DNA of 56,763 nt, counting the filler, from Sphacelaria rigidula (lineage: Eukaryota), in the NCBI GenBank assembly GCA_964200075.2. It is 6 parts of 6 records of this genome, joined end to end, with 100 filler letters (N's around TTAATTAATTAA, not from the genome) between each part and the next. Parts side by side here need not be neighbours in the genome. Positions count along the whole stretch, not along the records: positions 9,479 to 18,856 come from CAXNAA020008634.1; 5 more parts are not named here. The stretch is one strand, 5' to 3'. The position numbers and the translations under genes were made by a program. The notes beneath the pieces were generated by a model that was not told where the DNA came from, made no database searches, and saw only the letters and a list, made by a program, of their open reading frames with translations. Shown piece after piece: positions 9,379-47,387 of this stretch; the first letter of the stretch is position 1, and each line of letters opens with the position of its first letter.

Positions 9379-9478
9379 NNNNNNNNNNNNNNNNNNNNNN
9401 NNNNNNNNNNNNNNNNNNNNNNTTAATTAATTAANNNNNNNNNNNNNNNNNNNNNNNNNNNNNNNNNNNNNNNNNNNN
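9379..9478. other. Artificial linker (44N-TTAATTAATTAA-44N)
   Basis: Six-frame stop linker, identical at five equally spaced positions. Confidence 0.97.
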
Positions 9479-10023: not shown

Positions 10024-10740
10024 AAATGAGTGTATACAGCAGAGTTTTCAGTAACATGATCCGACTGTGTATAACGGACGCGAGACAAATCATTTTCAAC
10101 TAGCCCCGTTGATCATCTTCGAGGCCCCGTCCCAAAAGGGTCGACACATACTTTTTCAAATGCACCTGAAATAAATGTTCGGGCTTTATCACTCTATCAT
10201 CTATCAACTTCGAGAGTCTCTCGATGATGAACATCTCGAACGCATATACAAACCCCCTTCGCATGACTCTGAACATCTATTTCAAAAGCGATCGTACAGT
10301 TCAAGGGAAATGGTAAGCACCGAGAAGACGCAACGTAAAAAATGAGTGTATACAGCAGCGTTTCCAGCAACATGATCCGACTGTGTAGTACGGACGCGAA
10401 CAAATCACTTAATCTCGCACACCCCCCCTCCCCCCCCCCCCCCCCCCCCACTCTCCGCCCCATCCCCCCCGCCGCCGCCGCGGGCCCGCCCCAGTGCTTG
10501 CGGCCCNNNNNNNNNNTTTCCAGCACCATATCCGGCCTGTTTAGACCGGCCCCAAACAATCCCTTTAACCCCCCCCCCCCCCCTTCCCCCCCCCCCCCCC
10601 CGTATTTCTGTTTGAACATACCGTTACACCGCGAGGGTGGGTCACGTGCTGAATCGGCATCCATTTCATTTGGAAAAAAAAATGTACTGACCCTTCTGGG
10701 ACAGGGCCTCGAAGACGATCAATGAGTCATGCGAAGGGGG
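10024..10740. repeat. Rearranged repeat cluster: direct repeat plus two inverted-repeat pairs
   Basis: Direct repeat ~10024-10091 and ~10339-10408 (aaaatgagtgtatacagcag..catgatccgactgtgta..cggacgcga). Inverted pair 10109-10142 and 10689-10722 (31/34). Inverted pair cccccttcgcatgactc at 10253-10269 and 10724-10740. A 10-N gap lies at 10507-10516. Confidence 0.65.
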
Positions 10741-12051
10741 CAGTTCTGTCGTGCGGAACTAACTCTGTCCTCCTGTAGTACATGGGCACCAAATGGAAGT
10801 TGGGAACTGCTTTTTCGGGCAGACAGGAAACAGCGTCAAGCAGCCGTACGCTGGATGTTTTAACTCACGACCTCGATGGAACATGATACCAGGTAGGCAG
10901 CAGCAACTGCTGTGTGTCCAAGTGCCCCTTGGAGCAGGTTTCCCCCAAACCCCCGAATTCAATAGGGGTTTTAGAGTACAAAAATGTAGCAAAAAACGAG
11001 TCGTCAAATCGAGTCACAAAAAACGAGTCGCCGTAAACCGCCGAGTAGAAATGTCTATCCGGAGCAGAAACCAATTTCACGAAATGAATTGGAGTTGTCT
11101 TTTCTTCCACCTTATTTACGAACCCTTCCATTTCTCGGGATGATTTCGGAGTGTCGGGGGATCAACGCATGTTTCCTGGAAGACTCGTTACATACTCAAC
11201 ATTTTGAGACCGCAGATTTGAGCGGCACTACCGCACGACGTAGACTCCCGGCAAATAGTTCCCGCTACCGACGCGTCTCCATGTTCCCTGAGATGGAAAT
11301 CAGATACGTAACGGAGGGACGATTCTGCCGGTACTCAAACCTCAACCTTTCGTCCCCTTACCGCTGTCAGAGGAGGCAGTTGCGTGAACGGGACGCGGCG
11401 GTATGAGGTATGATTACAACTGCACCTCCCTTCAAGGTACCCCACGGGTGATGCTACGCTAGGGGTTGCCCTCTTTCAGCCGGAAGGTTTCCCGGGGCCG
11501 CTCGGGCTGCTGGACAGGTCATTCCGAGAATGGGCGTCGTTTTCACCTAAAAAAGACTGAAAATGATGCTGACTGACAAAAGGGCCCCTGCGTGCAAACT
11601 CGATGTTGATGGGAGTCCGGTCTCCGGAGATTTGGATTGCATAGTAAGCCCCATTTATTTGAGCCCGTGAAAACAAACAAAAAACAAAAACAAGGAGTGC
11701 AATCCATACCGTAGCATTGCTCCTACCGAAAGTACTAAAGCATCCGCCAAAGACATGCCATAAGATCGAAAAAGAGACGAAAATTAGCCAAAATGTCTAC
11801 AACCATGCTACGAAAACATGTTTGAAGATGATCAGTGATCACGAAATGATATACAAACATTTTATGCCGGCCTCCACCTCCCCTGGTCACCATCCAAACA
11901 CAGTGGCACCGTCACGCTCGGAAACAACTCCACTCATACTCTTTGCGGAGAGTTTCACGAACCATGACCTGCACAGAAGACAGATAGCGTTGAAAAGCGC
12001 CGACCCAAAACAATCAGGCGTGAAAAGGCGTGAACGGTCCCTGTCATCGAG

Positions 12052-13713
12052 CTACCTTTCTCGCGTGCGGGATAAGGACGCGGACACGCAACCAGAGGAA
12101 GCAGAAGGGGATAATTCCAACTTCACGTCCGCTACATCTTCAGACATCATAGCATCCCTCACTGCCTCATCAAATAACCGCTCCACCTGCGCTGTTTGGC
12201 GTAGCCTCTTTGAGTTCCTTCCACTCGTGATGTTACTACCGTAGCTCATTTTCACAGCCGTGCCTCTGGAGCCACCACTGCCCATGCCGTCGCAACTGCT
12301 GGGTTGCGCAGTGAACAGTTCGCTACTTCTCACCACCTTAGAAACTCGCGCTGGTTCAATAGTCGTCTCCTTTTCCATTTTCATTCGCGTCTCTCCCCGA
12401 TCAAGAGAAACGAAATATACGGACGCCGTATCGGGAGGCTGTCCCAGGATGGGAGGCGGTGTCGTTTTAACATTTGCACCCCGTTGCCTGGCACGGATGG
12501 CTCGCGAGCTGAGACGAGCATTAGTGTCGCGGGTACCATCGTTCGCGTTAGGACCGGCATCCGATGAATAGACGCGCCCTTTACCGTTCACCTTCTTGCC
12601 ATCGGCTACGCCAAACGACGGGTGTTTCGAGCAACCCTGCTTGCCGCCTCGATTGTTTTTCCCGTCAACCATGCCCGCCGGGGCGTGTGTGGCGCAAAAC
12701 TCCGCCTTCCTGCCATCGGCTGCACCGAACGATGGGTATCTATAGCAGCCCTGCTCGCCGCATCGCTCCTTTACGACGTTGATCATGCCCGCCGGGGCGT
12801 GTGTGGCGCAGAACCCCGCCTTCCTGTCACCGGCTGCACCGAACGATGGGCGTTTGTAGCAGCCCTGCTCGCCGCATCGCTTGTTAACGACGTTCGTCAT
12901 ACCCGCCTGGGCGTGTGTGGCGCAGAACTCCGCCCTTCTGCCACCGGCTGCACCGTGCGACGGGTATTTCGAGCAGCCCTCCTTGCCGCACCGCTTTTTC
13001 ATCACGTAGATCATGCCCGCCGGGGCGTGTGTGGCGCAGAACTCCGCTTTCCTGCTACCTGCTGCACCGTACGATGGGTGTTTCGAGCAACCTTGCTCGC
13101 CGCATCGCTTGTTTCTCACGTCAACCATGCCCGCCGAGGCGTGTTCGGCGCAGAACTCCGCCTTCATGCCACCGGCTGCACCGTACGATGGTTGTTTGAA
13201 ACAGCCCTCCTTACCGCACGGCTTCCTTTTCACGTTGACCATGCCCGACGGGGCATGTGTGGCGCAGAACTCCGCTTTCCTGCCACCGGCTGCACCGAAC
13301 GATGGGTGTTTGGAGCAACCCTTCTCACCACACGACTTGCCCACGACGTTGACCATGCCCGACGGGGCATGTGTGGCGCAGAACTCCGCCGTCCTGCTAC
13401 CGGCTGCACCGTATGACGGTCGTGTGCAGCAACCCTCCCCGCCGCACAGCTTGCTGAGGACGTTGACCATGCCCGCCAGGGCGTGTTTGGCGCAGAACTC
13501 CGCCTTCCTGTCACCGACTGCACCGAACGATGGGTGTATGGAGCAGCCCTCCTCGCCGCACCGCTTGTTTTTCACGTTCGCCATGCCCGCCGGGGCGTGT
13601 GTGGCGCAGAACTCCGCCTTTATGTCACCGGCTACACCGTACGACGGCTGTTTGAAACAGCCCTCCTTGGCGCACTGCCTGCTGGCGCACTGCCTGCCGA
13701 CAACACTGGCCAT
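12052..13713 (-). CDS. EsV-1-7 cysteine-rich repeat protein (9 complete + 1 partial 38-aa C-x4-C-x16-C-x2-H repeats, low-complexity C-terminal tail); may be a pseudogene
   Basis: 553-aa ORF with consensus CGxxGCxxxPS(F/Y)GAAGxRKAEFCATHAPAGMVNVxxKR, the EsV-1-7 motif expanded in brown algae; 114-bp DNA period. Upstream in the same frame is a degenerate repeat with an in-frame TAG (13771-13773), behind a splice acceptor at 13791-13793. Confidence 0.88.
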   Translation of the reverse strand: MASVVGRQCASRQCAKEGCFKQPSYGVAGDIKAEFCATHAPAGMANVKNKRCGEEGCSIHPSFGAVGDRKAEFCAKHALAGMVNVLSKLCGGEGCCTRPSYGAAGSRTAEFCATHAPSGMVNVVGKSCGEKGCSKHPSFGAAGGRKAEFCATHAPSGMVNVKRKPCGKEGCFKQPSYGAAGGMKAEFCAEHASAGMVDVRNKRCGEQGCSKHPSYGAAGSRKAEFCATHAPAGMIYVMKKRCGKEGCSKYPSHGAAGGRRAEFCATHAQAGMTNVVNKRCGEQGCYKRPSFGAAGDRKAGFCATHAPAGMINVVKERCGEQGCYRYPSFGAADGRKAEFCATHAPAGMVDGKNNRGGKQGCSKHPSFGVADGKKVNGKGRVYSSDAGPNANDGTRDTNARLSSRAIRARQRGANVKTTPPPILGQPPDTASVYFVSLDRGETRMKMEKETTIEPARVSKVVRSSELFTAQPSSCDGMGSGGSRGTAVKMSYGSNITSGRNSKRLRQTAQVERLFDEAVRDAMMSEDVADVKLELSPSASSGCVSASLSRTRER

Positions 13714-15664
13714 GCTTCCCGGCGTGCGTGTGGCGCGGAACTCCGCCTTCCTGCCACCGGCCGGACCGAACTATGGTGATTTCAAGCAGCCTGCACGAAA
13801 AAAATAGCACAGATAATTAGCTGTCGCGCTGATCTGTATGGGATCGTACATCATAATCATAGTATCGGGGTCGACAAATGGCATCCAGGCTGGAGTGGAT
13901 GACAACCCAACCGTGGAGTCAGCAGGCGAGGTGGATATCTACTGCGGCATGGTCGCTACAGGCGGTATGGTGCCTTCTCCATAAGGAGCATAGTGACAAT
14001 GCTGTGACTACGGCACGGACGACTTGACAAGAACGGTGTTCAACTCTAAACACTCACAAAACCCCTTACTGCAGGTGACCCGATACAAGGCCGGGTTGAT
14101 CCATGCCGAGTAATTCGGCCTAATATTAACAAAAAGGCGTACAACCGATTTTGAGTCGCTCTTGAAAGGGCCGAACCGGCCTTATGAAATGGGCCTAATG
14201 TCGGGTCAACAAGCTGCAAGCGTTGTCCTAGTTGACGGAGAACAGAAGCATCGCATTGTACGTCATTGATGGTATTGTGTCGTCTCTGGGGTGATACGCA
14301 CCGCCGTCAGCCCGTAAGCCGTTCGAAATTTTGAGTGCAGAGATGACTTTTGTTCGGGAGGTGGACCGGATGCGTACTATCTCCCGGTCCTAAGTGGTTA
14401 TATGATAGAGGATCAACAGTGCTATCGGAACTTCCCTTCAGAAGTCCCTTTATGACTCACATCCGGGCCTCATTTTGCAGCCTCAGAAAACGTTTCGACT
14501 GATGGTGCATCCCTTTCGTAGGATCACTTCACTCAAATTTTGACATCAAACGTCCACTGGGATGAGATGTGGCATGCGAACAAGCCATTACACATCGCCA
14601 ACTACAAAAAAACGTGAGCAAGTCTGGTTCAGCTGGAAACTACCACACGTCCACCAACCGGCACCCTGGGGTACAAGACGTCGGCATGATGCGAGACAGG
14701 GGTCATCTGCGGGCTAGAGTGTGAACGTGTGCAGGTGTGGGGCTACCGGAGCCTCAGTCATTGTGGCTCGCTCGCCCATGTTCCACGGGGTGCACTTGAA
14801 CAGCACAAACTGGGTGTACTTGTTATTGAGACTGCTCCGGAGGCAACGTTGTTACGCGAGGATACGCAAAGCACGGAAGACGTGACCGTGTCTCGGCCGC
14901 TGGGAAACGAGAATACCCTGGGATTGCAAAATTAGTTTGAGGATGGGTTTCAAAAGGAACACATCTGGTGGAGGCGCAACCAATCGGCACTTCCCCCACG
15001 AAGAGTCAAGCCGGAGTGACGCTCAGGGTCAAGAATGATGCCTCCACCATGAGCACATGAACTCGTCAGGGCCACAACACGGCATAGCAGATAGGATTTG
15101 TCTCCATACGAAAGTGGACTCAGGGGTATTTCGTGATCGTTGATACTGCTGTATAGAAAACGGTACGGTGTGCTGAAGAACATACGTCGTTCCAAAAAGA
15201 GAGAACGAAGCCAACACCCAGTCAAGTCACGAGGAAACGACATCATATCATCATTAGTTCCGCTGCTGTGAGCCACAAGCACGCCAAATTGATGCTGTCA
15301 GAAATAGAAGAGAAGCGTTGGCAAGCGGTGGGAAACAAATTCACGCGTGGACGAGGACCTGAAAAAAGAGCTGTAAAAACACGCAGACATCTACGTCATA
15401 TCACACATCGCCTTCACAGAATATAAAATGATATGTTGGAGGCATTTGGCCGACGAGTGAGGTGAGGCTTAGACTGAGATTTCGGCAAGAGAATACAAAC
15501 AAGGCAGAACTCGCTTGTACTCGGATTGTTTGCCATATCGAATGGTAGTGTATCTTCATTATGAGCAGTCCCCGAACAAATGTGCGAATCCAGTCCACCA
15601 TACCGCAGAGAGTTGAAATGATACAGTGGTTTTCAGCTGAAATAGAGGATAGTCGAGATCATTT

Positions 15665-16754
15665 CAAGGGCAGGTCAACTAGAGTATGTACTTTTGAGTA
15701 CTCGAAATACTCGAGTATTCACTCTACTCAAAGTTTGAATAGGTCGGGTAAGGTCTCACATACTCTACTCAATTTTTTAGTAGATCGAGAACGACCTCGA
15801 ATACTCTACTCAAATATTGAGTAAGCACTCTCAGTATTATTTGAGTAGAGAGTATCACTTGGGTATGGTAAGTACCCGTGATCGTCGGCAACTTCGTGAC
15901 GTCACTCCACAGACTATGTTGATGCATGGGCGAACGATGGCCATCAAATAGTATGAGCGAATGATGGGCTTAAAAAAAAAAAAACGTGGAGGTGAATGAA
16001 CAGTGCAAGACTTCGACTGCCCAATACTTCGATATGATTCTCAAGCTTTTGAGTACCCCGTTCGACAATACCCAAATTTTTGTTTTGCCCTAGCCTTGTA
16101 CCATTTGGTGCTGATCCAAATGCTATCTCGAATATACTGTATCCAAATGTTTGATGAAGTTTGATCTTGAAACAGCACTAATGATGGGTGGGCAACTCTA
16201 GGAATACCTCGGTATTTCCTCTACTCGAGTTTGAGTATCTTGCGTGCGAACTTGAATACTGAGGTTGAAGTTATCGGTACATCGGGTCCGGCCTTAGACA
16301 CCCTACCCAACTTTCGGGTAGATTGAGTATGGCCGCCAATACTATACTCAAATTTTGAGTCGATTGAATATGACCTAAAATACTGGACTCCACGGTTGGA
16401 GTCGGTCAAGTACGGCCTCAAATACTTTACTCAATTTTTGAATGGATCGAGAACGGCCTCAAATATCATGCTTGGATTTTGAGAAAGCACTCTCAGAAAC
16501 ACCTGAATATAGAGTACGGCCTCAAATACTCTACTCAAATTCTGAGTCTGTTGAGTATGGCCTCGAATACTCTACTCAAATTTTGAATGAATCGAGAACG
16601 ACCTCAAATATCATGCTTGAATTTTGAGAAAGCACTCTCAGTAACACCTGAGTATAGAGTACGGCCTCAAATACTCTACTCAAAATCTGAGTACTAGAAG
16701 TATGACCCTTTGAAAATACTCAGTATCGAGTATACTTTACTCGACCTGCCCTTG
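15665..16754. mobile_element. Non-autonomous hAT-like DNA transposon, 1090 bp
   Basis: TIR caagggcaggtc is perfect for 12 bp and extends to 20/23. Flanking 8-mers gatcattt (15657-15664) and ggtcattt (16755-16762) form an 8-bp TSD with one mismatch. ~41-bp subterminal repeats lie at both ends. No transposase ORF. Confidence 0.82.
16323..16693. repeat. Subterminal tandem array, ~41-bp unit with a ~145-bp higher-order repeat
   Basis: Unit approximates gagtacggcctcaaatactctactcaaattttgagtcgatt, about 8 copies; three further copies lie at ~15715-15825. Confidence 0.85.
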
Positions 16755-18856
16755 GGTCATTTCGGAGTGTGCGAATTTCGTAAGTGCTTTCGGTTGCTAC
16801 CACTTATCGCAGTGGACGTTTGATACAAAGGTTTGGGATCGGTAGATACCCAGTCAGCGCCTTCACATTTGCACACACTCATATCGGTACTTAATATTGA
16901 ACGACTTACAGGGTGGAACATTTTCGAGGGTCCTGCGACTACCCCGCCCCAGGCTTTGACCCGACAATTTCGCATTATTGAAGCAATCCCGATCGTTGTA
17001 ACGAAACAAATGAAAATGAATGTTGACTTGGAATTCTATCCATCCATTGCCTTGGAGCCAAATAACTGTGTCTTTTGGTCTAGGGACAATCGATGACACT
17101 CCCTGATGAACAAGGTGAACCGATTCCGATCACTCTGGTGAATAACTTGACAGCCCAATTGTTTTCCTTGCCTGTTCATTACGTTAGAGCCGAATTGATT
17201 GTTTTTTGGCCAAAAAAAAGCAAAGAGCATCCCTGTCGATTCAATCCGTAAGTCGTTCAGTGCTAAGCGCAGAGACCATTTTCATTTCGAAGTGTGAAGC
17301 GGATGCCTAGTATTTCGCGATCCCCAAGCGTTGGCGTCAAGGGTTCACCGGGATGCGTGATGGGTGCGCGAAAAAGCTATGGGAAATCGATGGCAACCAA
17401 AAATCACAAGAACTCCTCATTTCAGCTCAAACCACCGCAGTCCCGTTTACAGGGATTCCGTATCGTATCATAGTTACTGAATGACGTGTACTACGCAGTG
17501 CAGAGACTGCGGAACACCGGTGCTCCACGACAACGTCATCGTGGGAAACCAGCGTTCATTACACTTCGTGTAAATTACACGTTAAAATGGCATCTCAAAC
17601 TGCGCTTCACTTGGAAATGTTCATGAAACATTTCCTTCAGTACTTTGGTTATTGAGTGCGCTTTCCATGATCCGAAGGCTGCAATGAGTTCGGGCAGTGG
17701 CGTTTCCCCGATAACAGGTTTGGAAGCCGTTTTTTACGACTCTTGATACGCTCTGGCGCGTTCCACACCAAGCCGGGTAGTGCGCCGTCGTGATGGTTAT
17801 CACCATCGTTGACGTGTTCAACGAAACAGCGAGCGCTGTATGGCCCAGTGCCTTCAGCTATGCACTCTCGCATACGGCGCTGAATTTGTGCGGCTGCACA
17901 GCATGTTCCGTAAAGTATACAGCTGCGCCTTGTACGGGCATATCACATGTACCGCCGGTGCAGTTGCCCAGCGGCACTGGCTGCATTGTAATGCTACTGC
18001 ATCGTACGATGTGTAGTGTTGTGGTGTGTACACCACCTCGTGCACTACTTTTCACGTTTGTATTGTTTGTTCAGCTGGTCGCAACATGCTTGATAGAGGC
18101 TATTTTGTGTGATTCCATGTTCCGGCCGACCTCGACTTCTCCGAGGACAGTCCGGTTCTCTCGGAACGATGGACGGGAAAAGCATACATCGGGGGGAAGT
18201 GCCCATTCTCGGAGAAGATCCCCCTCTCCCTCTGAAAGGTCTCACGAGGAGCTGCGTGAAAATAAATCATCACCTGTAAGAACCGCTCGAACCCTGTCGA
18301 TCGAGTACTCCATCTGACCAGAACAAGCGGCGTTGAACCTTTTCTCCGCCATATTTGTGTGTTTGTTCGCACCTCGCCGCTCGTCTCATGACAAAGGATG
18401 CCGTTGTTTGAGGAGAAACGGAAAAGCGTGCAGCAACTGCGTGCAGAAAACTCCCGACGTGCGACAGGATATACGTGGCGACCTGGCGGGGATTCTGGTT
18501 TGGGGCTGGTTAAGCAGCCTTCGCCACTTCTGGGGGGAACTTGTGATCATGGGTCGATGAGAGGAGTCTGCTGTAGTGTTTGGCGTAGTGGAACAAAAAC
18601 GACATCTGTAAATTGTGCTCGCCATTGGTTGTTTGCGTTGGTGCAGAAAATACCCTTCTGTAGCTTTTTTATGCGGTGCATGCGTCAACGCTGATCCCTC
18701 GGTTTGTTTCCGTTGTCTCATTTGCGGGGGTGCGTATGTTACGGCTGTCGGGGTCACAATCTATTCATTCATTTGTCATACGTTGATGTCATACTTCCTC
18801 TGTCCCATAAGTCTGTATCGTTATGTTTGTACGGGCCCTTAACGATGTCCGATTTG

Positions 18857-18956
18857 NNNNNNNNNNNNNNNNNNNNNNNNNNNNNNNNNNNNNNNNNNNN
18901 TTAATTAATTAANNNNNNNNNNNNNNNNNNNNNNNNNNNNNNNNNNNNNNNNNNNN
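18857..18956. other. Artificial linker (44N-TTAATTAATTAA-44N)
   Basis: Same linker as 9379-9478. Confidence 0.97.
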
Positions 18957-19204: not shown

Positions 19205-20000
19205 CGTGTATGTGTCGATTCCGTCATAAGCTGCCATAGCCGTTCCAGAGGCCACAATCATCGCCTTCACCAACGCATTAGACGGATTAAACATGTCCGT
19301 GGGCGAGGCCTGTCCTGTGGGGTACCAACCCTGGAAGCGAAGAGGGGGGGTAGCAAAATGAAAGGGGGAGGAGGGGGGGGTGCGTTTACGCTTTTGGCCA
19401 CCAACAGCTTGAAGGATTTTCCACGGGGGCAGTCGTGTGTACAAAGCAAGATACAGAACGGTACACTGGCATACATACATACATACATGGGTGGACTGAC
19501 ACAAATTAATTGCTCTGCGGTCGAAAGGTTCACACTATTGCAGGAATTCCCGACAGCACACTGAGTCTTGTTGAAAAAACTCAAGGGGTAGGGTGGCACA
19601 AGGTGATGAACACGGAGCTGGATAGTGAGCGGCGAGAGGGCGGTGAGTACGGTTGGACGGATTAGGACTTGGGTGTTCGGGCAGAGATGTCGTATCTACG
19701 GTGCGAGTTGTGATAAACCGGCTCCGGCAAGGGGGGGCACATTAATGCACCCCTCCGGAGGTTGTTGGCCACCAAAATTATTGCCATTCACGCACGAGTA
19801 TTGTTCGAGTAGCATGTCTCATCGAGGGGCAAGGCGTGGGGTGGTAGGGAAACTGACCCGCACCACCTCGACATTCTATTTCGGTCGTATTGACCTGAGC
19901 ACAAGACATGCAGCAGCAGCTGCTGCTGCTACTACTGCTACTGCTACTGCTACTGCTACTGCTACTGCTGCTACTGCTGCTGCTACTACTACTACTGCTG

Positions 20001-20061
<61 letters not shown>

Positions 20062-23000
20062 GACTACTTCTACGACTACGACTACGACTACGACTACGAC
20101 TACGACTACGACTACTACGGTGACTACTGCGGGTATCTCCACTACTGTCATCGCGCAGGTACACATGGTGGTAGGAACGTGCCTGGACGAAGTACTGCCG
20201 AACTAGAGCAACGGATCCAGCCACCACGGGTGTGGCCATGCTTGTACCTGCCATGGAGCCAATGTCGCACGTTTCTCCATCGTCCGGGTTTCCCTTTGAA
20301 ACAAATCGCAAGGTAACAACAGATGTTGCGGTTATTGACACTGGCATTATCATACTGTCACAACTTGTATAGTTGCTAGACAATGACAGCATGGTGTTGT
20401 GCGTTGAACAATGATGACAGCACCATCGGTGCAGTTGGAAGCTTACAGCATGATGCCGTCGACCGGTATTGTTGGGGGAGGAGGGCCAACTGTCACGTTG
20501 TGGTGGTGCAGGGTCACCGCTCATTTTCTGTTCTATTATGCGGATTGAAAGGAAGAAAAGGAGGGTAATCCCCTTCACTATATACCAGCATTTTTTACCG
20601 CTCCCACCCCTCTCACGTTTGTTCATGAAAGGATCGTTCGAATTGCACACAGCCATCACCAAGGACAACATCAACAGCGACCAGAGAGTGTGGCGAACGA
20701 TAAAAGAGGCCTCCATCGGCACACGAGCTACCTGCGCGGAAAACAGGTGATAACCCGGAGCCACCACATCCGGCTTAATCCTGTTGTCGTCAGCCGTAGG
20801 TCCCTGAGACGAAAAATATGCCACCTCACTTATGTCATCTGCAAGACCGGCGCTGTTTGGACTGGCTTCGCTCGCCCCCACCGTGATCACATTCTTCGCC
20901 AAGGCCGGCGACAGGATCGACCCTGCCCCGTAGATGTACTCGCCCTGGGCAATGTGTAGTCACGCATCATAGAGGACAACTGGCTACGCTGGGGACAGGA
21001 GTTGTACTGATGAACCATGGATGTCTTGGGTGAGTCATATGATACACTCCCCCGCTGAATCGGGTAGACAATACAGTAGCTACCTGCAACTTGACTTTTA
21101 CGTCGTTCGTACAGTAGACGGTGCTGTATTATTGATTGAGGGACCGCAACAGGCAGAATAGGCTGAAGTTTGGTAAAAACCAAAATTATGATAATATTGC
21201 CGGATCGATAACCTTTTTCTTTTTCCGCAGACTTGAACAGAAGAACACTCAACGATTGTTTTGTTTCTTTCAACTCTGATGTCATGACCTTGACGGCTTC
21301 ATATCTTGTATTACTATTTTCTCCTTTTGCCTTGCTATAGGAGACGCAATTCGTGACCCTCAAGAGAGAATTCGGTCGAACCATTGCAAATACGTCAATA
21401 GTTCTCAACACACAAACCATCACACCCAAAACGGTACAATACGTCGTCCATCTTAACCCTGAAATGGAAGACCTCGAACGAGAAAAAGTCACCCACATCT
21501 GAGTTGCACTCGGAGATTGAGTCGCCGCAATTCCCCGCGGCAACGAGGATGACCATGTCTGGGTTACTGTACGCGAACGCGTCCAGTTGTGCATCCAGGG
21601 TGGTGTACGTTGTTCGCACTGCCCCCCAGCTATTGGTGCTAACCCGAGCACCGATGTCGTACGGCGGCTGCAGTAGCTGGGTCTAAGGTAGCGGTGTGTG
21701 TGCGTGTGTGTGCGTGTGTGTGGAGAGGAGGAGAAGTTGACGGGAACGGTGAACGTATTTTGATTGACGCATATGGATTCGATTGTGCCCACAAGACTAA
21801 CCACGTGGCTCTGGAGGTCTGGAGAAGGAATCGTACGGTAGGGGTACATTTAGGATGCTCGCCCTCGTCAAGCACAGACATCCACATCAAGATACGAGAT
21901 ACAACAATCTCAGGAAGACATTTACATCACACGGTCCAACGTGGGGGGTGTATCGCGGTCAGCAATGAGAGCTATATAGGATGGTACGAGGTGCTCGCTC
22001 GAAGCTCGCTCTAAGTACTCAGAGGAAGAGCGACAACGAGTGTCACTTTCGAGGGCGACAGGAGGGCCGCTCAGCAAGGGCATCTGGGAAAAGCGGTGCA
22101 AAAATCAGCTTGAGTGGTCCTCGCATCGATTGCGTCTCTTCCGACGTCTCCAAAGGCCCACGGTGCGCCCGGGCTGAAGTGGTCGCGCTGGAATGCCGCT
22201 TTCTAGACACCACGGCTATCTAGATCTGAATATAGCATGTACCATGTACCAACAACTGTATACCTATACACGGGGTGAACGAGTTTCTCAGAAACCTGTA
22301 GCACACAAGACTTTGCGGGCTTCCTACGATCCTGTATTTGTGGACTCGGTCGCTCTCTGAGCGGTATCCGTCGCGCTTCTTCAAAACATCGAAAACGAAC
22401 AAGAGCGGCAATTTTCAGAGCTCCAACTTCTACAAAGGAGCTCCCTCGCTACATAACTCGGCCAAATCGCCCTGCCTCCGCTGTCACACGCATCCGTAAA
22501 GTATTCCACACTTGCTTGTACGTGGCCAAAGGGAAGACATCGCCGGGCCTTATCGCTCAGCACTTGTCGTTGTGACTGTACTGGACATTTTAGATTTTTC
22601 AGCAATTTCCCCCCTACCTGAAAGCCGCAACAAACTCTCAAAAGAAACGGCAGGTTTAGCTAGCGCCCTGTGCTCGCCTGTAAGTTGGTAGGGGTCACAA
22701 GGGCCCCCTCTGAATTTCCGAAGTCGAAAACCGACAACTTCGCTCCGAATGCCATCTGTTTCCGGCGGGCATATTCGCGCGACAGAATCAATCGTTATTG
22801 GATACGTTGGACACGGAAATCAAGCATGGGTTGTGTCTGCGCGGTGAGGTCTGTGTGTGTGAATGGCATGTCTGAATCTGGTGATGCCAGCAGACAGTTC
22901 TGATTAGGACGTAAATCGTGTAGCGTTTGAAACCGCGCCGTTGTGTTTTCTCACATTTTGTCCATGCCGCACAGCTGCAAAGCCGTGTGCAATAACCACA

Positions 23001-26000
23001 CTTCTTGTGGCAACATACGGTAGTCCGCAAGGGCGATGAGCTCCGAAACGGCCAGGAGAAAAGCAGATCAAGCATACGGTTTCGAAGGACGCTGAAGGAA
23101 GAAGTGACATGAAGTGTCTATACCCAGGTAGCTATTGTACCCGTCGTGGCGTACCCCGTCACCAATGTGCTCCCCTGGAGAAGTGTCGCTGATCGCCCCG
23201 GCAGCACTGCCCGCGACATGTGTACCGTGCCCGTCTTGATAGTCGTAGCAGTCAACATATGCGACATACTGGACCACCTGATTGTAGCAAACAGCGCACG
23301 ATAGTACCGCAGGCGTTATGTACTGCATGACGTGCGTCGCGTTTGCTCTTCTTGTAGGTGACGGGCTGTCAAAACAATTCGCACGATCGTTTGGAGAGCA
23401 CTTTTCAAAGTATAAGACGCTTGCAACTTGGATAATTGAGAGCAATAGCTACATCAGCCACCGGTACGATTAGAAGCGCGATGTACAAGCATGCATCACA
23501 TTTGCATGCCCTCTATGGTGTCGGACACGCGATGACACAGGCCACGCGGCCATAAGTGCATTGCGATAGTTACAGAAAATGGTCACCTTGCGCTTGGTGA
23601 GGTCGTAAACTGGATTGCTGTAGGTGGAGCACTCCACGTTATCTCCGTCATCTTCTCCAAAAAAACAGCTCGACACGTCCAGCCCAGAGTCAGCCAAGGC
23701 GATGATCTGTGTTTCAATGTTGTCGGAAGTTGACGTGCAGGAAAGCTTGCCAGAAGTGTGACATTTGCGGCACAATGCTTGAAAAATGACTATATTTCCT
23801 ATGTCCCACAAGGAAAGTCCGTCATGATCACACGGACCCTTTACCGCGTCCAATACCGTGGGCGGTATTTTTTCGGAAATCTTCAGGGGTTTTCGAAAGC
23901 ACAGAGAACAATATTGAAAACCCGAATGACGGCAAATACCGCGAAAAATAGCACAACTTGCTCTGTTTCTTCGGTTTATCGCTGGCATACGATAGCTACG
24001 CCTAGTTCGAAACCACTCGTTTACAGTGAAGCCTTCAATTACTTCAAAACAAGCAAAATTCGTCGAAATTTGGCCATGTTTGACCCAACGATTCTAAGGT
24101 TGTTGGTCGATTATTTTGCTTTTGTTTTTCCCAGCGGCCATATCCACAACTATATAGTTCCAACGAACCTAACCATAACACCGTAAGCACCTCCGCTGGC
24201 GAGGTACGGCCTATCCTCCGTAACGGATTTCACATATGGGACAGAGAAAGTATGAATCAATAGTTTTGGGGTGCGCTTTGCGACACACGGGTTCTACCCT
24301 ACATAATCCTCTACTGAAAATCGAAGGGGGGAGAAGCAGGCTTGATCAAATTCCATATATATATTATATTTTTTCCTGACGTGATGTCTGATGCAACAGA
24401 GGTGGTAAACGAATGAACCCCGACACACACCATTGTGCCCAACGGCTGCACCGTGATTGGACTCAGTCGGTATTGTACTTTGACATGATTAAACGTGTCG
24501 CCGTATCACACTTCCCATTTCTAGCACCTATATCCTCCAAGACAAACGAAATATATCCTACTAAGCCCATTCCTTACTGGTAATGACCAAGCAGCTGCGC
24601 CTCTCTCCATCGATATGATGCTTCGCGGTAGATGTCTGAAATCTGGAAACGGCGGGCCCTGTGAATTTTCGACTGGAGGTCTGAATGCTTCACCAGATCG
24701 TAGAACCAAATATGTGAGTCGAGATTATCCTCAGACAGCAAAAACAGCCGCCGGACTCTACTCTAGCGAAAGCAGCCCAGGTTTAGCTGACGTGTAGATC
24801 CGACCGATCACCTCAGTTCTGCCATCGATGTTTTGTTCCCACACCGGGTACGTCGTTTCCTGGCCGCTCTGCAAAATCCAAGCAGCCTCTACGTTCATAG
24901 GAATCACTTTCGGTAAATCGTCCACGTATGCCACCTCCGGGCGGGTGGCGAGAAATGCCATCACAGTCATCAAACAGTACGCGTTTTGCTCCTCTTCCCT
25001 ACCCAAGGATCCCGCGCCCCGCAACACCACCCTATCATGTGCTTCCACGTCCCCCCGTCGCGCGCTGCCGGTAGAACTGCCTCTGGATTTTGCTGTATCG
25101 GGAGTGCTTCGCCGCCTCCGCGGTCGCCAGTGCCTGTGCTGATTGCCCGGCGCTTGAGTTTGTTGTTCTTCATCTCCTGCTACTTGTGCGTGCAAGCGTG
25201 CGAAGTTGCAGGCACCGTCCTTGCTGCTGTGGTTAACGACTTGGTCCCAGAGATCCGCGGGGTCATGCAGGCCGTGTTTCGCGGCCATAGTGGTCTCGCG
25301 AGATGGTATACCCGTCATGGTCGCTTCTACCCTTTCTCCTTTTTTCTTTTCCTCGGCTGTTTCCCAGTAGTCATCCTTAGCCATTTCGGTATTCTTCCGC
25401 GTCCACAAAAATGCATGTCTTAAGTATCGATTCCACAATTCCGCTGTCGAACCGAAAGTGGTCAGGTGGTCAACCCATTTGTTTGTCATACCTATGCCCC
25501 AAGATCCCGGGGTGAGAGTGACCTCTAGATCGTCGGGAACACCGTGGCTGAATCGGATTTCCCGTCGCAATGATTCCTCAGCGTACGTTTGTGGTGCTCC
25601 TGGTTCACCAGATTTGCCGGTGCCACCAGAGCGATAATCACTAGTCGATGCCCCACTTTCTTTACTCCCTAACGATACAGTGCTGTCCGCTCCTTGTTCT
25701 CTTCTTTTGTCCTTTCGAGGCTCAAATTCTACGTGCAAGCTGCGCGAGATCTTGGCCAGATGAGGCAGGGGTTCAACAAAGTGCACCCCGGCAGCCTCCC
25801 GCACTGCATCGACGTCCGTCAGGCGTAGTGCGGCTAACAAACAAGACCTATTCCCGCGAGAATAAGCTAGCTGGGTGCGGGCATGGTGTACCTTCTTCTC
25901 CACGAGGCGAATCGCATCCGGATGCCTGTTGGTGCAAACCAAGAAGGGCGAGCGCACTGCCTCGGCTAAAGCTGGCACGGCGTGTTCTCTATTTTCAGCG

Positions 26001-27405
26001 TTTATGGGGGGTTCGTGGCGGGTGCGGGGTTCGGATTCGTTGGGAACATCGTCAAGATCTGTTTTAGGCGGTTGTGGTTGAACCTGTCGCGTGTCTGTGT
26101 TGTCGCTGACGACGAGTGCGTTGTATTGTGAGGACTGCAGAAAGGACCACTCTTCATCAAGTGCTTCTCGAAATGCCTCTTCCCGGCTGGTCATGGCGTT
26201 CTCCAACTGCGGTGTAGGTAAGCGAGCAGGCAGTTTGCAAACGGACGTGGTTTCAAGACGGTGCAAAGGCAAACCGTGCGACATTTGGATAATCTTCATG
26301 TGGTCAAGGTCCGAACCAAGGAGTCACGGCGTTGACACCGCTGTGCACGATGCATGCTGCAGCATCAGATGATATTCGTAGTGACCGGGACGGTGTTGCT
26401 AACAGTATCAAGGAAGGTAACACCAAACGAATCGCCAAGATGTCACTCGTGGCGAACATTCGTCCTACTGTACGCCCATCACAGGAGCATTTTCTAATGA
26501 GTATCCGTATTTACATGCCGCAACCGTTCGGACCTGGATTGGTGATGGGGCGACCCATGAAGACATACTCACTTGTGCATTTCTGTACGACATCAAGCCG
26601 GGTAGTTCGCCAAAAAATACGCGAACAGGGTCTACCGTGTCGTTGGTGTCGACGGCAAGTACTTGGTATGCGTACTTGGTATGTACCACAGGTGACAAAT
26701 ACTGAACGGTAAAGCGCACGGTGACGATACTATGCCGCCCTCACCGTAGTACATGAGTAGCATACAACAGATGCATGTCGCGGACGCCAAAGAAACGAAG
26801 AACGCTATGCGTAGCATTCTTTCCCGTTTTTCTGAAACGTGCTTGCTCAAGTTGAAGTCACCACGCACGAAGAGACTGCCTACGATGGGTAGCGTTTGGC
26901 ACAGGACTTGGAGCTACAGCATGGGACAGCCTCTCGCACAGGGCTCGTAGCTGCCATGTGAGGGCGCCGTGTGAGGGCGTGGTCCAAATTCGAAATGAAA
27001 CATTACTGCTCTGTGTTGTCGTGTTGCTGTCAAACACATTCATGCACACGGCGTGAAATGAAGGAACTATTGCCGCACATCATTACCTCGATGGCCACAG
27101 CTTTGCAGCTGAATAAAACCGACGCCGGTCGGTGTTCTGTATCACGCCGGCAACGCCCATCTATCATATCTTACCTCCTTTCCCAAGCTTGTGTGCCACA
27201 TGGACTCCAGGTGCTGTAGTGTCAGGCGCTGGCGCTGCTGTGCAACTCCTATTCGCGCGTAATTGGGGTCTGCTTCATCATGCACCTCTAACAACGGAGC
27301 GCTACTGCTGGGGCGCACAGCGTCGAGGAATGCATTTTCGGCCGTAGCTAGCACTATGCCCGTGAGTATACCCGCAGACACCGTCAACACGATGCAGCGG
27401 TTCAT
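19205..27405 (-). CDS. Secreted subtilisin-like serine protease (peptidase S8, KP-43/TagC-like); 3' end missing at the linker
   Basis: Exons 27405-27175 (signal peptide MNRCIVLTVSAGILTGIVLATA), 26206-24812, 23706-23587 (IIALADSGLD, catalytic Asp), 23277-23155 (DGHGTHVAGS, His), 22755-22678 (MAFGAKLSVFDFG), 21682-21497 (STNSWG, VAAGN oxyanion Asn), 20944-20732 (AKNVITVGA, FSSQGPT, RIKPDVVAPG), 20293-20183 (GTSMATP, Ser), 19330-19205 (GWYPTG..PSNALVKAMIV). All joins are phase 0; 861 aa assembled with no stop reached. Confidence 0.92.
19910..20128. repeat. Compound trinucleotide microsatellite (GCA/GCT/ACT/ACG)n in a subtilisin intron
   Basis: About 70 triplets read directly; the source of the poly-S/T/L/V ORFs in the ORF track. 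Confidence 0.95.
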
Positions 27406-28333: not shown

Positions 28334-28433
28334 NNNNNNNNNNNNNNNNNNNNNNNNNNNNNNNNNNNNNNNNNNNNTTAATTAATTAANNNNNNNNNNN
28401 NNNNNNNNNNNNNNNNNNNNNNNNNNNNNNNNN
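28334..28433. other. Artificial linker (44N-TTAATTAATTAA-44N)
   Basis: Same linker. Confidence 0.97.
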
Positions 28434-37810: not shown

Positions 37811-37910
37811 NNNNNNNNNNNNNNNNNNNNNNNNNNNNNNNNNNNNNNNNNNNNTTAATTAATTAANNNNNNNNNNNNNNNNNNNNNNNNNNNNNNNNNN
37901 NNNNNNNNNN
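37811..37910. other. Artificial linker (44N-TTAATTAATTAA-44N)
   Basis: Same linker. Confidence 0.97.
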
Positions 37911-47287: not shown

Positions 47288-47387
47288 NNNNNNNNNNNNN
47301 NNNNNNNNNNNNNNNNNNNNNNNNNNNNNNNTTAATTAATTAANNNNNNNNNNNNNNNNNNNNNNNNNNNNNNNNNNNNNNNNNNNN
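47288..47387. other. Artificial linker (44N-TTAATTAATTAA-44N)
   Basis: Same linker. Confidence 0.97.

What the first reader, a model, noticed from the sequence alone, without database searches (positions are those of the whole stretch)
12586..13674. EsV-1-7 array with position-specific hypervariable residues: possible modular recognition code
Seen: nine in-register 38-aa repeats with a nearly invariant scaffold (C1, G5, C6, P10, S11, G13, FC22-23, H26, GM30-31). The three residues between C6 and P10 switch radically (FKQ, SIH, CTR, SKH, FKQ, SKH, SKY, YKR, YRY, and SKH in the partial tenth), with a second variable basic patch at positions 35-38. Established: EsV-1-7 repeats are shared with phaeoviruses, expanded in brown algae, and occur in the Ectocarpus developmental regulator IMMEDIATE UPRIGHT; I know of no established ligand. 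Inference: a fixed C3H zinc-binding scaffold with variable K/R/Q/H/Y residues resembles C2H2-ZF, TALE and PPR arrays, and could be a programmable nucleic-acid-binding system for transposon or virus recognition.
Basis: partly seen in the sequence, partly recalled or inferred. Interest (0 to 1): 0.75.

Follow-up and report, generated by a model that had tools for sequence, protein, structure and literature searches.

The report
Brown-algal EsV-1-7 zinc-repeat array gene
This is an intact gene of the known but functionally unexplained EsV-1-7 zinc-repeat family of brown algae and giant viruses, and the residues that differ most from repeat to repeat sit on either side of each zinc knuckle, which gives a concrete place to test whether the repeats read DNA.

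Summary
It lies on the minus strand: nine in-register 38-residue Cys3His repeats plus a partial tenth, in an open 553-codon gene (12052-13713). Pfam PF19114 matches at E=1.2e-138. The closest relatives are Sphacelaria rigidula paralogues (48-57% identity) with the same conserved C-terminal tail.

The "hypervariable 7-9 triplet" needs correcting. Position 8 is a conserved Lys (K 49%, T 23% family-wide). Positions 37-38 are a conserved K-R pair. Position 7 is only one of about a dozen variable sites. The positions that differ most between repeats of one protein, in three separate protein groups, are 9 and 36, then 35.

Position 36 co-varies with position 9 of the next repeat (z=4.8) but not of its own repeat (z=0.2). 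Between orthologues, 9+35+36 change less than other variable sites (13/205 vs 112/980, p=0.03). There is no sound evidence of positive selection.

A DNA-reading role is plausible. Of 202 relatives with a C-terminal tail of 120 residues or more, 112 share one endonuclease-like C-terminal domain. A published Ectocarpus transposase carries the repeat. There is a weak in-register match to the first zinc site of the plant SBP DNA-binding domain. Neither binding nor a code is shown. Earlier notes of this scan reached a similar DNA-targeting idea on other DNA.

The parts
12052..13713 (-). Open reading frame of 553 codons plus stop (stop codon at 12052-12054). It starts MASVVGRQ..., 13 residues before the first repeat.
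   Evidence: The annotated Sphacelaria rigidula paralogues start at the same relative place (MVNV..KRC). Scaffold codons have pN=0 with pS=0.40.
12649..13674 (-). Nine complete 38-aa EsV-1-7 Cys3His repeats, 114 nt each: R1 13561-13674 through R9 12649-12762.
   Evidence: TRF, Pfam PF19114, motif scan, codon table.
12592..12648 (-). Partial tenth repeat (GGKQGCSKHPSFGVADGKK). C1 is replaced by G and there is no C23 or H26.
   Evidence: 47-55% nt identity to the full repeats.
12055..12591 (-). C-terminal tail of about 180 residues. It is predicted disordered but conserved among 16 paralogues, with basic motifs (SSRA.R.RRR; TKRLR) that look like nuclear-localisation signals.
   Evidence: pLDDT under 50 from residue 357 on. 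Tail cluster of 16 including the window. Conserved motifs. P0235 is 100% identical to residues 444-553.
13714..13791 (-). Decayed upstream repeat, now outside the coding frame. It has an in-frame TAG at 13771-13773, and C23 and H26 are both replaced by R (FRATRT).
13668..13697 (.). Exact 15-nt tandem duplication at the 5' edge of repeat 1. It gives QCASRQCA.
   Evidence: TRF row 2; translation.
11347..12051 (-). Possible 3' untranslated region (weak hint only).
   Evidence: Exact contigs of three runs guessed to be RNA cover 11347/11650/10909 to 12520 at depth 22-29. Depth upstream of 13770 is 3.0-3.6. The run X1 is flat at 62-73.

Best explanation
SHOWN. An intact gene of a Sphacelaria-type brown alga encodes a 553-aa EsV-1-7 family protein with nine tandem 38-aa C-x4-C-x16-C-x2-H modules, a partial tenth and a conserved, basic, disordered tail. 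There is a weak hint that it is transcribed. Both ends of the array leave complete ligand sets only if each repeat uses its own C1, C6, C23 and H26, so one zinc per repeat is the fitting reading.

INFERRED. The array is a nucleic-acid (most likely DNA) binding multi-zinc-finger. The strand that enters each zinc knuckle (x35-x36-K37-R38 of the previous repeat) and the strand that leaves it (x7-K8-x9-P10-x11) run side by side. The repeat-specific residues 36 and 9 (less so 35, 7 and 11) therefore sit together with the conserved basic K37, R38 and K8. The basic residues would hold the backbone, and the variable polar residues (R/Q/H at 9; S/N/H at 36) would give each module its own preference. 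Whether that amounts to a readable per-repeat code is open.
For: Family and integrity: PF19114 E=1.2e-138. Scaffold codons have pN=0 against pS=0.40. The tail is conserved in 16 paralogues.

Repeat-specific positions: within-protein repeat-to-repeat difference is highest at position 9 in all three groups (0.81 / 0.77 / 0.79). Positions 36 (0.77 / 0.76 / 0.75) and 35 (0.75 / 0.61 / 0.76) are next. The groups are a viral-like group (104 proteins, 630 repeats), Sphacelaria (20 proteins, 97 repeats) and other brown algae (17 proteins, 77 repeats). An alignment-free check on 797 repeats of exact 38-aa period gives 9 (0.80), 36 (0.77) and 35 (0.73) first. In the Sphacelaria subset of that check 36 and 9 are first, at z=3.6 and z=3.4 over the other positions.

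Coupling: position 36 of repeat r with position 9 of repeat r+1 gives z=4.8, and 35 with the next 9 gives z=3.7. Position 36 with position 9 of the same repeat gives z=0.2. Nearer pairs (36 with the next 2, 3, 4 or 7) give z=-1.9 to 1.5. The null was 500 within-protein permutations. H36 followed by R9 occurs 79 times against 38.8 expected.

Constraint: between orthologues or close paralogues, 9+35+36 vary in 13/205 columns against 112/980 for other high-entropy positions (p=0.033). Positions 35+36 vary in 6/128 against 450/3037 for non-repeat columns (p=0.0007).

Geometry: AF2 places beta bridges at repeat positions 12-13, 22 and 32-33, with repeats at pLDDT 85-95. A 33-with-next-12 hairpin register would pair 36 with the next 9.

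DNA link: 112 of 202 tails of relatives form one C-terminal domain. In an alignment of 40 of these proteins it has invariant D, E-x-D-E and R-x-N-P columns and a nearly invariant H. Its Atlas look-alikes are PvuRts1I-like and DUF559 endonucleases at 0.84-0.88, which is a lead only. The TcMar-2_Ec32 transposase has an N-terminal EsV-1-7 domain (PMC12477816, passage read). Pfam SBP matches in register, repeat 1-34 to profile 1-34, at E=0.04-0.06.
Against: No binding data exist for any EsV-1-7 protein. The held papers call it 'of unknown function'.

The variability is graded, not a discrete class. In the whole set, positions 9, 35 and 36 are only z=1.6-2.1 above the other positions. In the strict Sphacelaria set position 35 drops to 0.44.

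Positions 7+9 evolve between orthologues like any variable site (10.6% vs 10.5%) and not significantly slower than non-repeat sequence (14.8%, p=0.19).

In this array, dN at 7 and 9 exceeds the array-wide dS (0.60 vs 0.34) but not the local pS (pN 0.41 vs pS 0.58). Synonymous difference is three times higher in codons 1-12 and 32-38 (32%, 33%) than in codons 13-31 (9.7%). A regional mutation or gene-conversion effect therefore explains part of the pattern.

The SBP score (14 bits) is below the cut-off of 27. The nuclease assignment of the viral tail is lead-level only. This gene has no such domain.
Confidence: 0.4

Rival explanations
1. The array is a zinc-stabilised protein-protein (or other non-nucleic-acid) interaction scaffold. 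The repeat-specific residues shape partner surfaces, as in LIM, RING or B-box modules.
For: The only structural neighbours, all weak, are RING, B-box and A20 fingers: best Z 2.9-3.1, rmsd 2.6-3.9 over 38-45 residues. According to the 2026 preprint, EsV-1-7 genes in Ectocarpus carry no other Pfam domain (passage read). The tail is disordered.
Against: Z values around 3 are below what unrelated models reach (notes). The conserved K8, K37 and R38 basic set, the endonuclease-like and transposase fusions, and the in-register SBP similarity point to DNA.
Confidence: 0.3
2. There is no specificity function. The variable positions are simply the least constrained surface sites. Uneven concerted evolution (a homogenised core, diverging edges) makes them look position-specific.
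For: Synonymous difference is 9.7% in codons 13-31 against 32-33% at the edges. Local pN/pS at positions 7, 9 and 35-36 is at or below about 1. Positions 7+9 equal other variable sites between orthologues. Entropy forms a continuum.
Against: The same two positions rank first in three groups that do not share recent arrays. The 36-to-next-9 coupling exceeds that of nearer pairs. Positions 9+35+36 are slower, not faster, than other variable sites between orthologues.
Confidence: 0.25
3. The locus is a decaying pseudogene copy of the family.
For: The upstream repeat is broken by TAG and has lost C23 and H26. The tenth repeat is partial. The only identical database protein is a 110-aa tail fragment.
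Against: There are 553 open codons. No scaffold residue is lost in nine repeats, although pS is 0.40. The start is at the same place as in annotated paralogues. The tail motifs are conserved.
Confidence: 0.05

Closest known systems
EsV-1-7 cysteine-rich repeat family (Pfam PF19114 / IPR043822; Ectocarpus IMMEDIATE UPRIGHT; EsV-1 gene 7)
   Same: Same motif, spacing, 38-aa period and tandem arrangement. Brown-algal and giant-virus relatives.
   Different: It has no IMM-type N-terminal domain. It carries a tail shared only with 15 Sphacelaria rigidula paralogues. F, Y or C at position 7 in 5 of the 9 full repeats is unusual for that subfamily.
Giant-virus EsV-1-7 array proteins with an endonuclease-like C-terminal domain
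   Same: The same repeat, 6-15 copies, with the same variable positions 9, 36 and 35.
   Different: The window gene lacks the nuclease-like domain. That domain's identity rests on invariant acidic and His columns and an Atlas lead below 0.9.
First zinc site (Cys3His) of the plant SBP DNA-binding domain (PF03110)
   Same: Cys3His ligands (PMC5768680, passages read). In-register Pfam alignment of repeat positions 1-34/38 to profile positions 1-34/38. The identical C-x4-C-x16-C-x2-H spacing is recalled from memory, not taken from a call.
   Different: It scores 14 bits against a cut-off of 27. There is no second Cys2HisCys site. It is tandemly repeated, whereas SBP is a single two-zinc domain.
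C2H2 zinc-finger, TALE and PPR arrays (modular readers)
   Same: Tandem small modules with a fixed scaffold and a few repeat-specific residues. This is a functional analogy only.
   Different: No sequence or fold similarity. The model has no helix. No ligand or code is known.
WRKY19 zinc finger repeat (PF24906)
   Same: It overlaps the C-x4-C-K knuckle of EsV-1-7 repeats in relatives P0015, P0039 and P0084 (31-36 bits).
   Different: Only profile positions 1-13 of 24 match. There is no hit in the window protein at E<=0.01.

Membership tests
EsV-1-7 repeat family (PF19114) | Match to the Pfam model above the gathering score | tested here: met
   451 bits against a cut-off of 25, E=1.2e-138, 9 stretches.
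EsV-1-7 repeat family (PF19114) | C-x4-C-x16-C-x2-H ligand spacing in tandem units of about 38 aa | tested here: met
   9 of 9 repeats. In relatives the period is 38 in 639 of the anchor pairs counted, with 39 next at 39 pairs.
EsV-1-7 repeat family (PF19114) | Zinc binding | not testable with these tools
   Inferred from the invariant C/C/C/H: CCCH in 1597 of 1824 repeat hits.
IMMEDIATE UPRIGHT orthologue | The unique IMM N-terminal domain ahead of five repeats (criterion in 10.1101/2024.02.19.579948) | tested here: not met
   Only 13 residues precede the first of nine repeats. No comparison with the IMM sequence was made.
SBP domain (PF03110) | Pfam gathering score | tested here: not met
   14.0-14.6 bits against 27.
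SBP domain (PF03110) | A second Cys2HisCys zinc site following the Cys3His site | tested here: not met
   Each 38-aa unit has only four ligands.
Modular nucleic-acid readers (C2H2-ZF / TALE / PPR kind) | One module reads a fixed number of bases through defined residues | not testable with these tools
   Only indirect evidence: repeat-specific positions 9 and 36 and their coupling.
Modular nucleic-acid readers (C2H2-ZF / TALE / PPR kind) | Shared fold or sequence with one of those families | tested here: inconclusive
   Foldseek found no match at E<=0.001. VIA best Z was 2.9-3.1, to RING and B-box domains. The PDB sequence searches found 0 hits.
WRKY19 zinc finger (PF24906) | Match to the Pfam model | tested here: inconclusive
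   No hit in the window protein at E<=0.01. Relatives give partial hits to profile positions 1-13 of 24.

The most novel reading that the evidence does not exclude
EsV-1-7 arrays are a fourth kind of modular DNA reader. Each zinc knuckle presents a two-strand patch in which residue 36 of one repeat and residue 9 of the next (helped by 35, 7 and 11) choose the bases, while K37, R38 and K8 hold the backbone. Giant viruses would use such arrays to aim endonucleases. Brown algae would have turned hundreds of them into regulators such as IMM.
Probability: 0.2. Interest if true: 0.85.

Novelty: new member of a known kind. Interest (0 to 1): 0.5.

Why it matters
EsV-1-7 genes form the largest orthogroup of brown-algal genomes. 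There are 2018 genes in 31 genomes, and they include the developmental regulator IMM (passages read). Yet the repeat has no known ligand. Naming two coupled, repeat-specific positions beside each zinc knuckle turns 'unknown function' into a short list of mutations and repeat swaps to test. If the arrays read DNA, the viral nuclease fusions would give natural pairs of array and target from which to work out the rules.

Tried and rejected
- No whole genome is held for this window, so no genome-wide census or paralogue DNA was available.
- Macaisne et al. 2017 is not held. It is cited only through other papers' text.
- Foldseek against PDB found nothing at E<=0.001, with the full model and with the 3-repeat model.
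- VIA wide gave a best Z of 2.9 and 3.1, to RING, B-box and A20 fingers. This is too weak to name a fold.
- phmmer and profile searches of PDB sequences found 0 hits for the protein and for alignment A2. Alignment A3 gave 3 chance-level rows at E>=0.099.
- The structure tool gives no coordinates, so the 'one face' test could not be run.
- A first mutual-information run on 145 strict repeat pairs was underpowered and dominated by same-position similarity of neighbouring repeats.
- A search for longer fused forms found only 3 proteins.
- A Pfam scan of 60 viral-like relatives found no Pfam family on the C-terminal domain. The only other rows were short weak hits within the repeat arrays or at the N-terminus.
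- P0018 has no close Ectocarpus orthologue in the database (best 59%). Orthologue groups were instead taken from 90% clusters.
- A single-repeat profile for a profile-profile comparison with SBP could not be built.
- No listed run is on record as RNA. The depth contrast in three runs guessed to be RNA is only a weak hint.
- The acceptor-like ttttttt..cag at about 13794-13807 does not extend the reading frame, because the TAG at 13771-13773 is in frame.
Full report
**1. What is there**

The region 12591-13675 is a tandem array of period 114 nt, 9.5 copies, 81% matches and no indels. It is coding on the minus strand. The stop-to-stop frame 12052-13770 gives 572 residues. From the first Met (13713) the protein has 553 residues:
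- 13 lead-in residues;
- nine 38-aa repeats of the form C-x3-G-C-x3-P-S-x-G-x8-F-C-x2-H-x3-G-M-x7;
- a partial tenth repeat whose C1 is G and which lacks C23 and H26;
- a tail of about 180 residues.

Pfam EsV_1_7_cys matches with E=1.2e-138 in nine stretches. Upstream of the Met lies a decayed repeat with an in-frame TAG (13771-13773) and with R in place of C23 and H26. A 15-nt exact duplication sits at the 5' edge of repeat 1. No other EsV-1-7 copy is in the window. GC content is 0.59 in the 12001-14000 bin, against 0.45-0.53 elsewhere.

**2. Is it a working gene**

In the nine repeats the eleven scaffold codons tested have pN=0 with pS=0.40. The whole array has pN=0.17 and pS=0.27. The closest proteins are unnamed products of Sphacelaria rigidula at 48-57% identity. 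The best of them cover 92% of the query and start at the same relative place (MVNV..KRC).

The tail groups with those of 15 S. rigidula paralogues and keeps shared motifs, including the basic SSRA.R.RRR and TKRLR. AlphaFold2 models the repeats at pLDDT 85-95 and the tail below 50.

Exact contigs of three runs that are only guessed to be RNA cover the 3' part and unique pieces of the array at depth 13-38. Depth just upstream of 13770 is 3.0-3.6. The run X1 is flat at 62-73. That is a weak hint of transcription and no more.

**3. How big the family is**

A full scan of 1.84 billion representatives gives 6152 clusters at E<=0.001, 3429 at E<=1e-10 and 925 at E<=1e-30. The literature read here counts 2018 members in 31 brown-algal and sister genomes. 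[quoted passage not shown] Two searches of the held library ('EsV-1-7', 11 papers; 'EsV-1-7' plus 'DNA-binding', 3 papers) turned up no paper that reports a ligand or a code.

**4. Testing the 'hypervariable 7-9' claim**

I extracted repeats from 240 relatives plus the window with an HMM. There were 1824 repeat hits. I kept the 1202 that have C/C/C/H intact and at most two gaps, of which 1193 are unique.

Entropy ranks position 7 first (3.70 bits). Positions 14 (3.68), 2 (3.64), 28, 25, 3, 9 (3.42) and 35 (3.39) are close behind. Position 8 has 2.43 bits (K 49%, T 23%). Position 37 is K/R in 94% and position 38 is R/K in 100%. So there is no unique triplet, position 8 is conserved, and 37-38 are a conserved basic pair.

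The sharper question is which positions differ between repeats of one protein. Over all proteins with four or more repeats, the mean pairwise difference is highest at position 9 (0.82), then 36 (0.78), 35 (0.77) and 7 (0.71). The next position is at 0.68.

I then split the proteins into three groups:

| Group | Proteins | Repeats | Top three positions |
|---|---|---|---|
| Viral-like | 104 | 630 | 9, 36, 11 |
| Sphacelaria | 20 | 97 | 9, 36, 35 |
| Other brown algae | 17 | 77 | 9, 35, 36 |

In Sphacelaria most positions differ in only 0.13-0.49 of pairs, but positions 9 and 36 differ in 0.77 and 0.76.

An alignment-free check used only repeats of exact 38-aa period (797 repeats in 204 proteins). 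It gives 9 (0.80), 36 (0.77) and 35 (0.73). In the Sphacelaria subset positions 36 and 9 are first, at z=3.6 and 3.4. Position 35 drops to 0.44 there, and in the whole set the three positions are only z=1.6-2.1 above the rest. The pattern is therefore reproducible but graded.

**5. Coupling**

The null was 500 permutations that shuffle repeats within each protein.
- Position 36 of a repeat shares information with position 9 of the next repeat (z=4.8, n=1217).
- Position 35 does so too (z=3.7).
- Position 36 and position 9 of the same repeat do not (z=0.2).
- Nearer pairs (36 with the next 2, 3, 4 or 7) give z=-1.9 to 1.5.

Thirty-two pairs were tested. Favoured pairs are H36 then R9 (79 observed, 38.8 expected) and N36 then Q9 (105 observed, 72.7 expected). 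Shared descent of neighbouring residues in repeat duplications can add to such a signal. The weaker values for nearer pairs argue that this is not the whole story.

**6. Rates between orthologues**

I used 14 groups of orthologues or close paralogues, 56 proteins in all, mostly Ectocarpus species. They came from 90% clusters and from pairs of 70% identity or more. Three groups had no differences. Residues whose surrounding 17 columns were under 60% identical to the reference were dropped.

| Positions | Variable columns | Share |
|---|---|---|
| 7+9 | 16/151 | 10.6% |
| Other high-entropy positions (vs 7+9) | 109/1034 | 10.5% |
| Non-repeat columns | 450/3037 | 14.8% |
| 35+36 | 6/128 | 4.7% |
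| 9+35+36 | 13/205 | 6.3% |
| Other high-entropy positions (vs 9+35+36) | 112/980 | 11.4% |

Positions 7+9 do not differ from other high-entropy positions (p=1.0) or from non-repeat columns (p=0.19). Positions 35+36 differ from non-repeat columns at p=0.0007. Positions 9+35+36 differ from other high-entropy positions at p=0.033. The refined set differs between repeats yet is kept somewhat better between orthologues. The effect is modest, and the groups are few and related.

**7. Selection within this array**

At positions 7 and 9, dN is 0.60 against an array-wide dS of 0.34. At 35-36, dN is 0.97. The local synonymous values are as high, however: pS is 0.58 and 0.53 against pN of 0.41 and 0.54. 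Among codon pairs with the same residue, 31.6% differ in codons 1-12, 9.7% in codons 13-31 and 32.7% in codons 32-38. The core is thus homogenised or constrained at the DNA level and the edges are not. I do not claim positive selection. Repeats 1 and 5, which share FKQ, are also the closest pair in DNA (87%), so that recurrence is shared descent.

**8. Structure**

Two AlphaFold2 runs were made:
- the full protein: mean pLDDT 69, pTM 0.46;
- repeats 4-6 with flanks: pLDDT 83.6, pTM 0.56.

Both show no helices in the confident repeats. Beta bridges fall at repeat positions 12-13, 22 and 32-33. If 32-33 pairs with 12-13 of the next repeat, the antiparallel register puts 36 opposite the next 9, 37 opposite 8, 38 opposite 7 and C1 opposite C6. 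Residues 36, 38, 7, 9 and 11 would then share one face. This fits the coupling in section 5, but it is inference, because the tool returns no coordinates.

The ends of the array support zinc ligation within a repeat. The preceding decayed unit lacks C23 and H26, and the tenth lacks C1. Only the C1-C6-C23-H26 register leaves nine complete sites.

No known fold was found, and no solved relative by sequence.

**9. What the repeats may bind**

Of 202 relatives with a tail of 120 residues or more, 112 share one C-terminal domain. In an alignment of 40 of these proteins the domain has invariant D, E-x-D-E and R-x-N-P columns and a nearly invariant H. Pfam does not name it: in 60 scanned, no Pfam family covered the tail.

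The ESM Atlas puts it nearest to PvuRts1I-like and DUF559 endonuclease clusters at 0.84-0.88, which is under the 0.9 bar and so a lead only. Its structural neighbours are Nucleocytoviricota clusters automatically named 'Endonuclease family protein'.

A published Ectocarpus Tc1/mariner transposase has an N-terminal EsV-1-7 domain (PMC12477816, passage read). Pfam SBP aligns in register with a repeat at E=0.04-0.06, 14 bits against a cut-off of 27. The first SBP zinc site is Cys3His (PMC5768680, passages read). Its identical spacing is my recollection. Pfam Zf_WRKY19 overlaps the first knuckle in some relatives.

The conserved basic K8, K37 and R38 and the R/Q/H and S/N/H make-up of positions 9 and 36 suit a nucleic-acid surface. 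None of this shows binding.

Earlier notes of this scan on other genomes had already proposed DNA targeting from the nuclease fusions and had noted the SBP likeness. I took these as leads and tested them only as far as stated here.

**10. Verdict**

This is an ordinary, intact new member of a known, large, functionally unexplained family. Its 'hypervariable 7-9' should read '9 and 36, then 35, with 7 and 11 following; 8, 37 and 38 conserved'.

My odds:
- The array binds nucleic acid through the knuckle-flanking patch: 0.4.
- It forms a readable per-repeat code: about 0.2.
- It is a protein-binding scaffold: 0.3.
- The variable positions have no specificity role: 0.25. This reading overlaps the protein-binding one.

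Nothing here bears on transposon or virus recognition by this gene.

Noticed in passing
window 10600-11067 and 15514-16917: Very high-copy sequence flanks the gene on both sides. The summed contig depth in run X1 reaches 35,000-195,000, against about 70 for the single-copy stretches between. These are probably transposable-element copies.
   Followed up: no
window 19781-20959 (-): An open frame of 393 aa with a partial subtilase match (Peptidase_S8, E=6e-15, profile positions 161-212 of 288). It is probably one exon of a protease gene.
   Followed up: no
window 50726-51364 (-): An open frame containing a ribosomal protein S12/S23 segment (E=1.9e-17, profile positions 22-65 of 110). It is probably one exon.
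   Followed up: no
window 24761-26323 (-): A 521-aa open frame, the second longest in the window, with no Pfam match at E<=0.001.
   Followed up: no
window 9379-9478, 18857-18956, 28334-28433, 37811-37910, 47288-47387: Paired runs of 44 N separated by 12 bases recur about every 9478 bases. Short 10-N runs occur elsewhere. The regular spacing looks like masking or scaffolding rather than biology.
   Followed up: no
relatives P0024-P0240 (112 proteins): A conserved C-terminal domain of about 170 aa lies behind EsV-1-7 arrays of viral-like proteins. Pfam does not cover it. In an alignment of 40 of these proteins it has invariant D, E-x-D-E and R-x-N-P columns and a nearly invariant H. It is preceded by extra C-x2-C pairs.
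   Followed up: partly
window 13015-13674, codons 13-31 of each repeat: Synonymous sites in the core of the repeat are three times more alike than at its edges (9.7% vs 32-33%). This suggests short-tract gene conversion or a constraint at the DNA or RNA level.
   Followed up: partly
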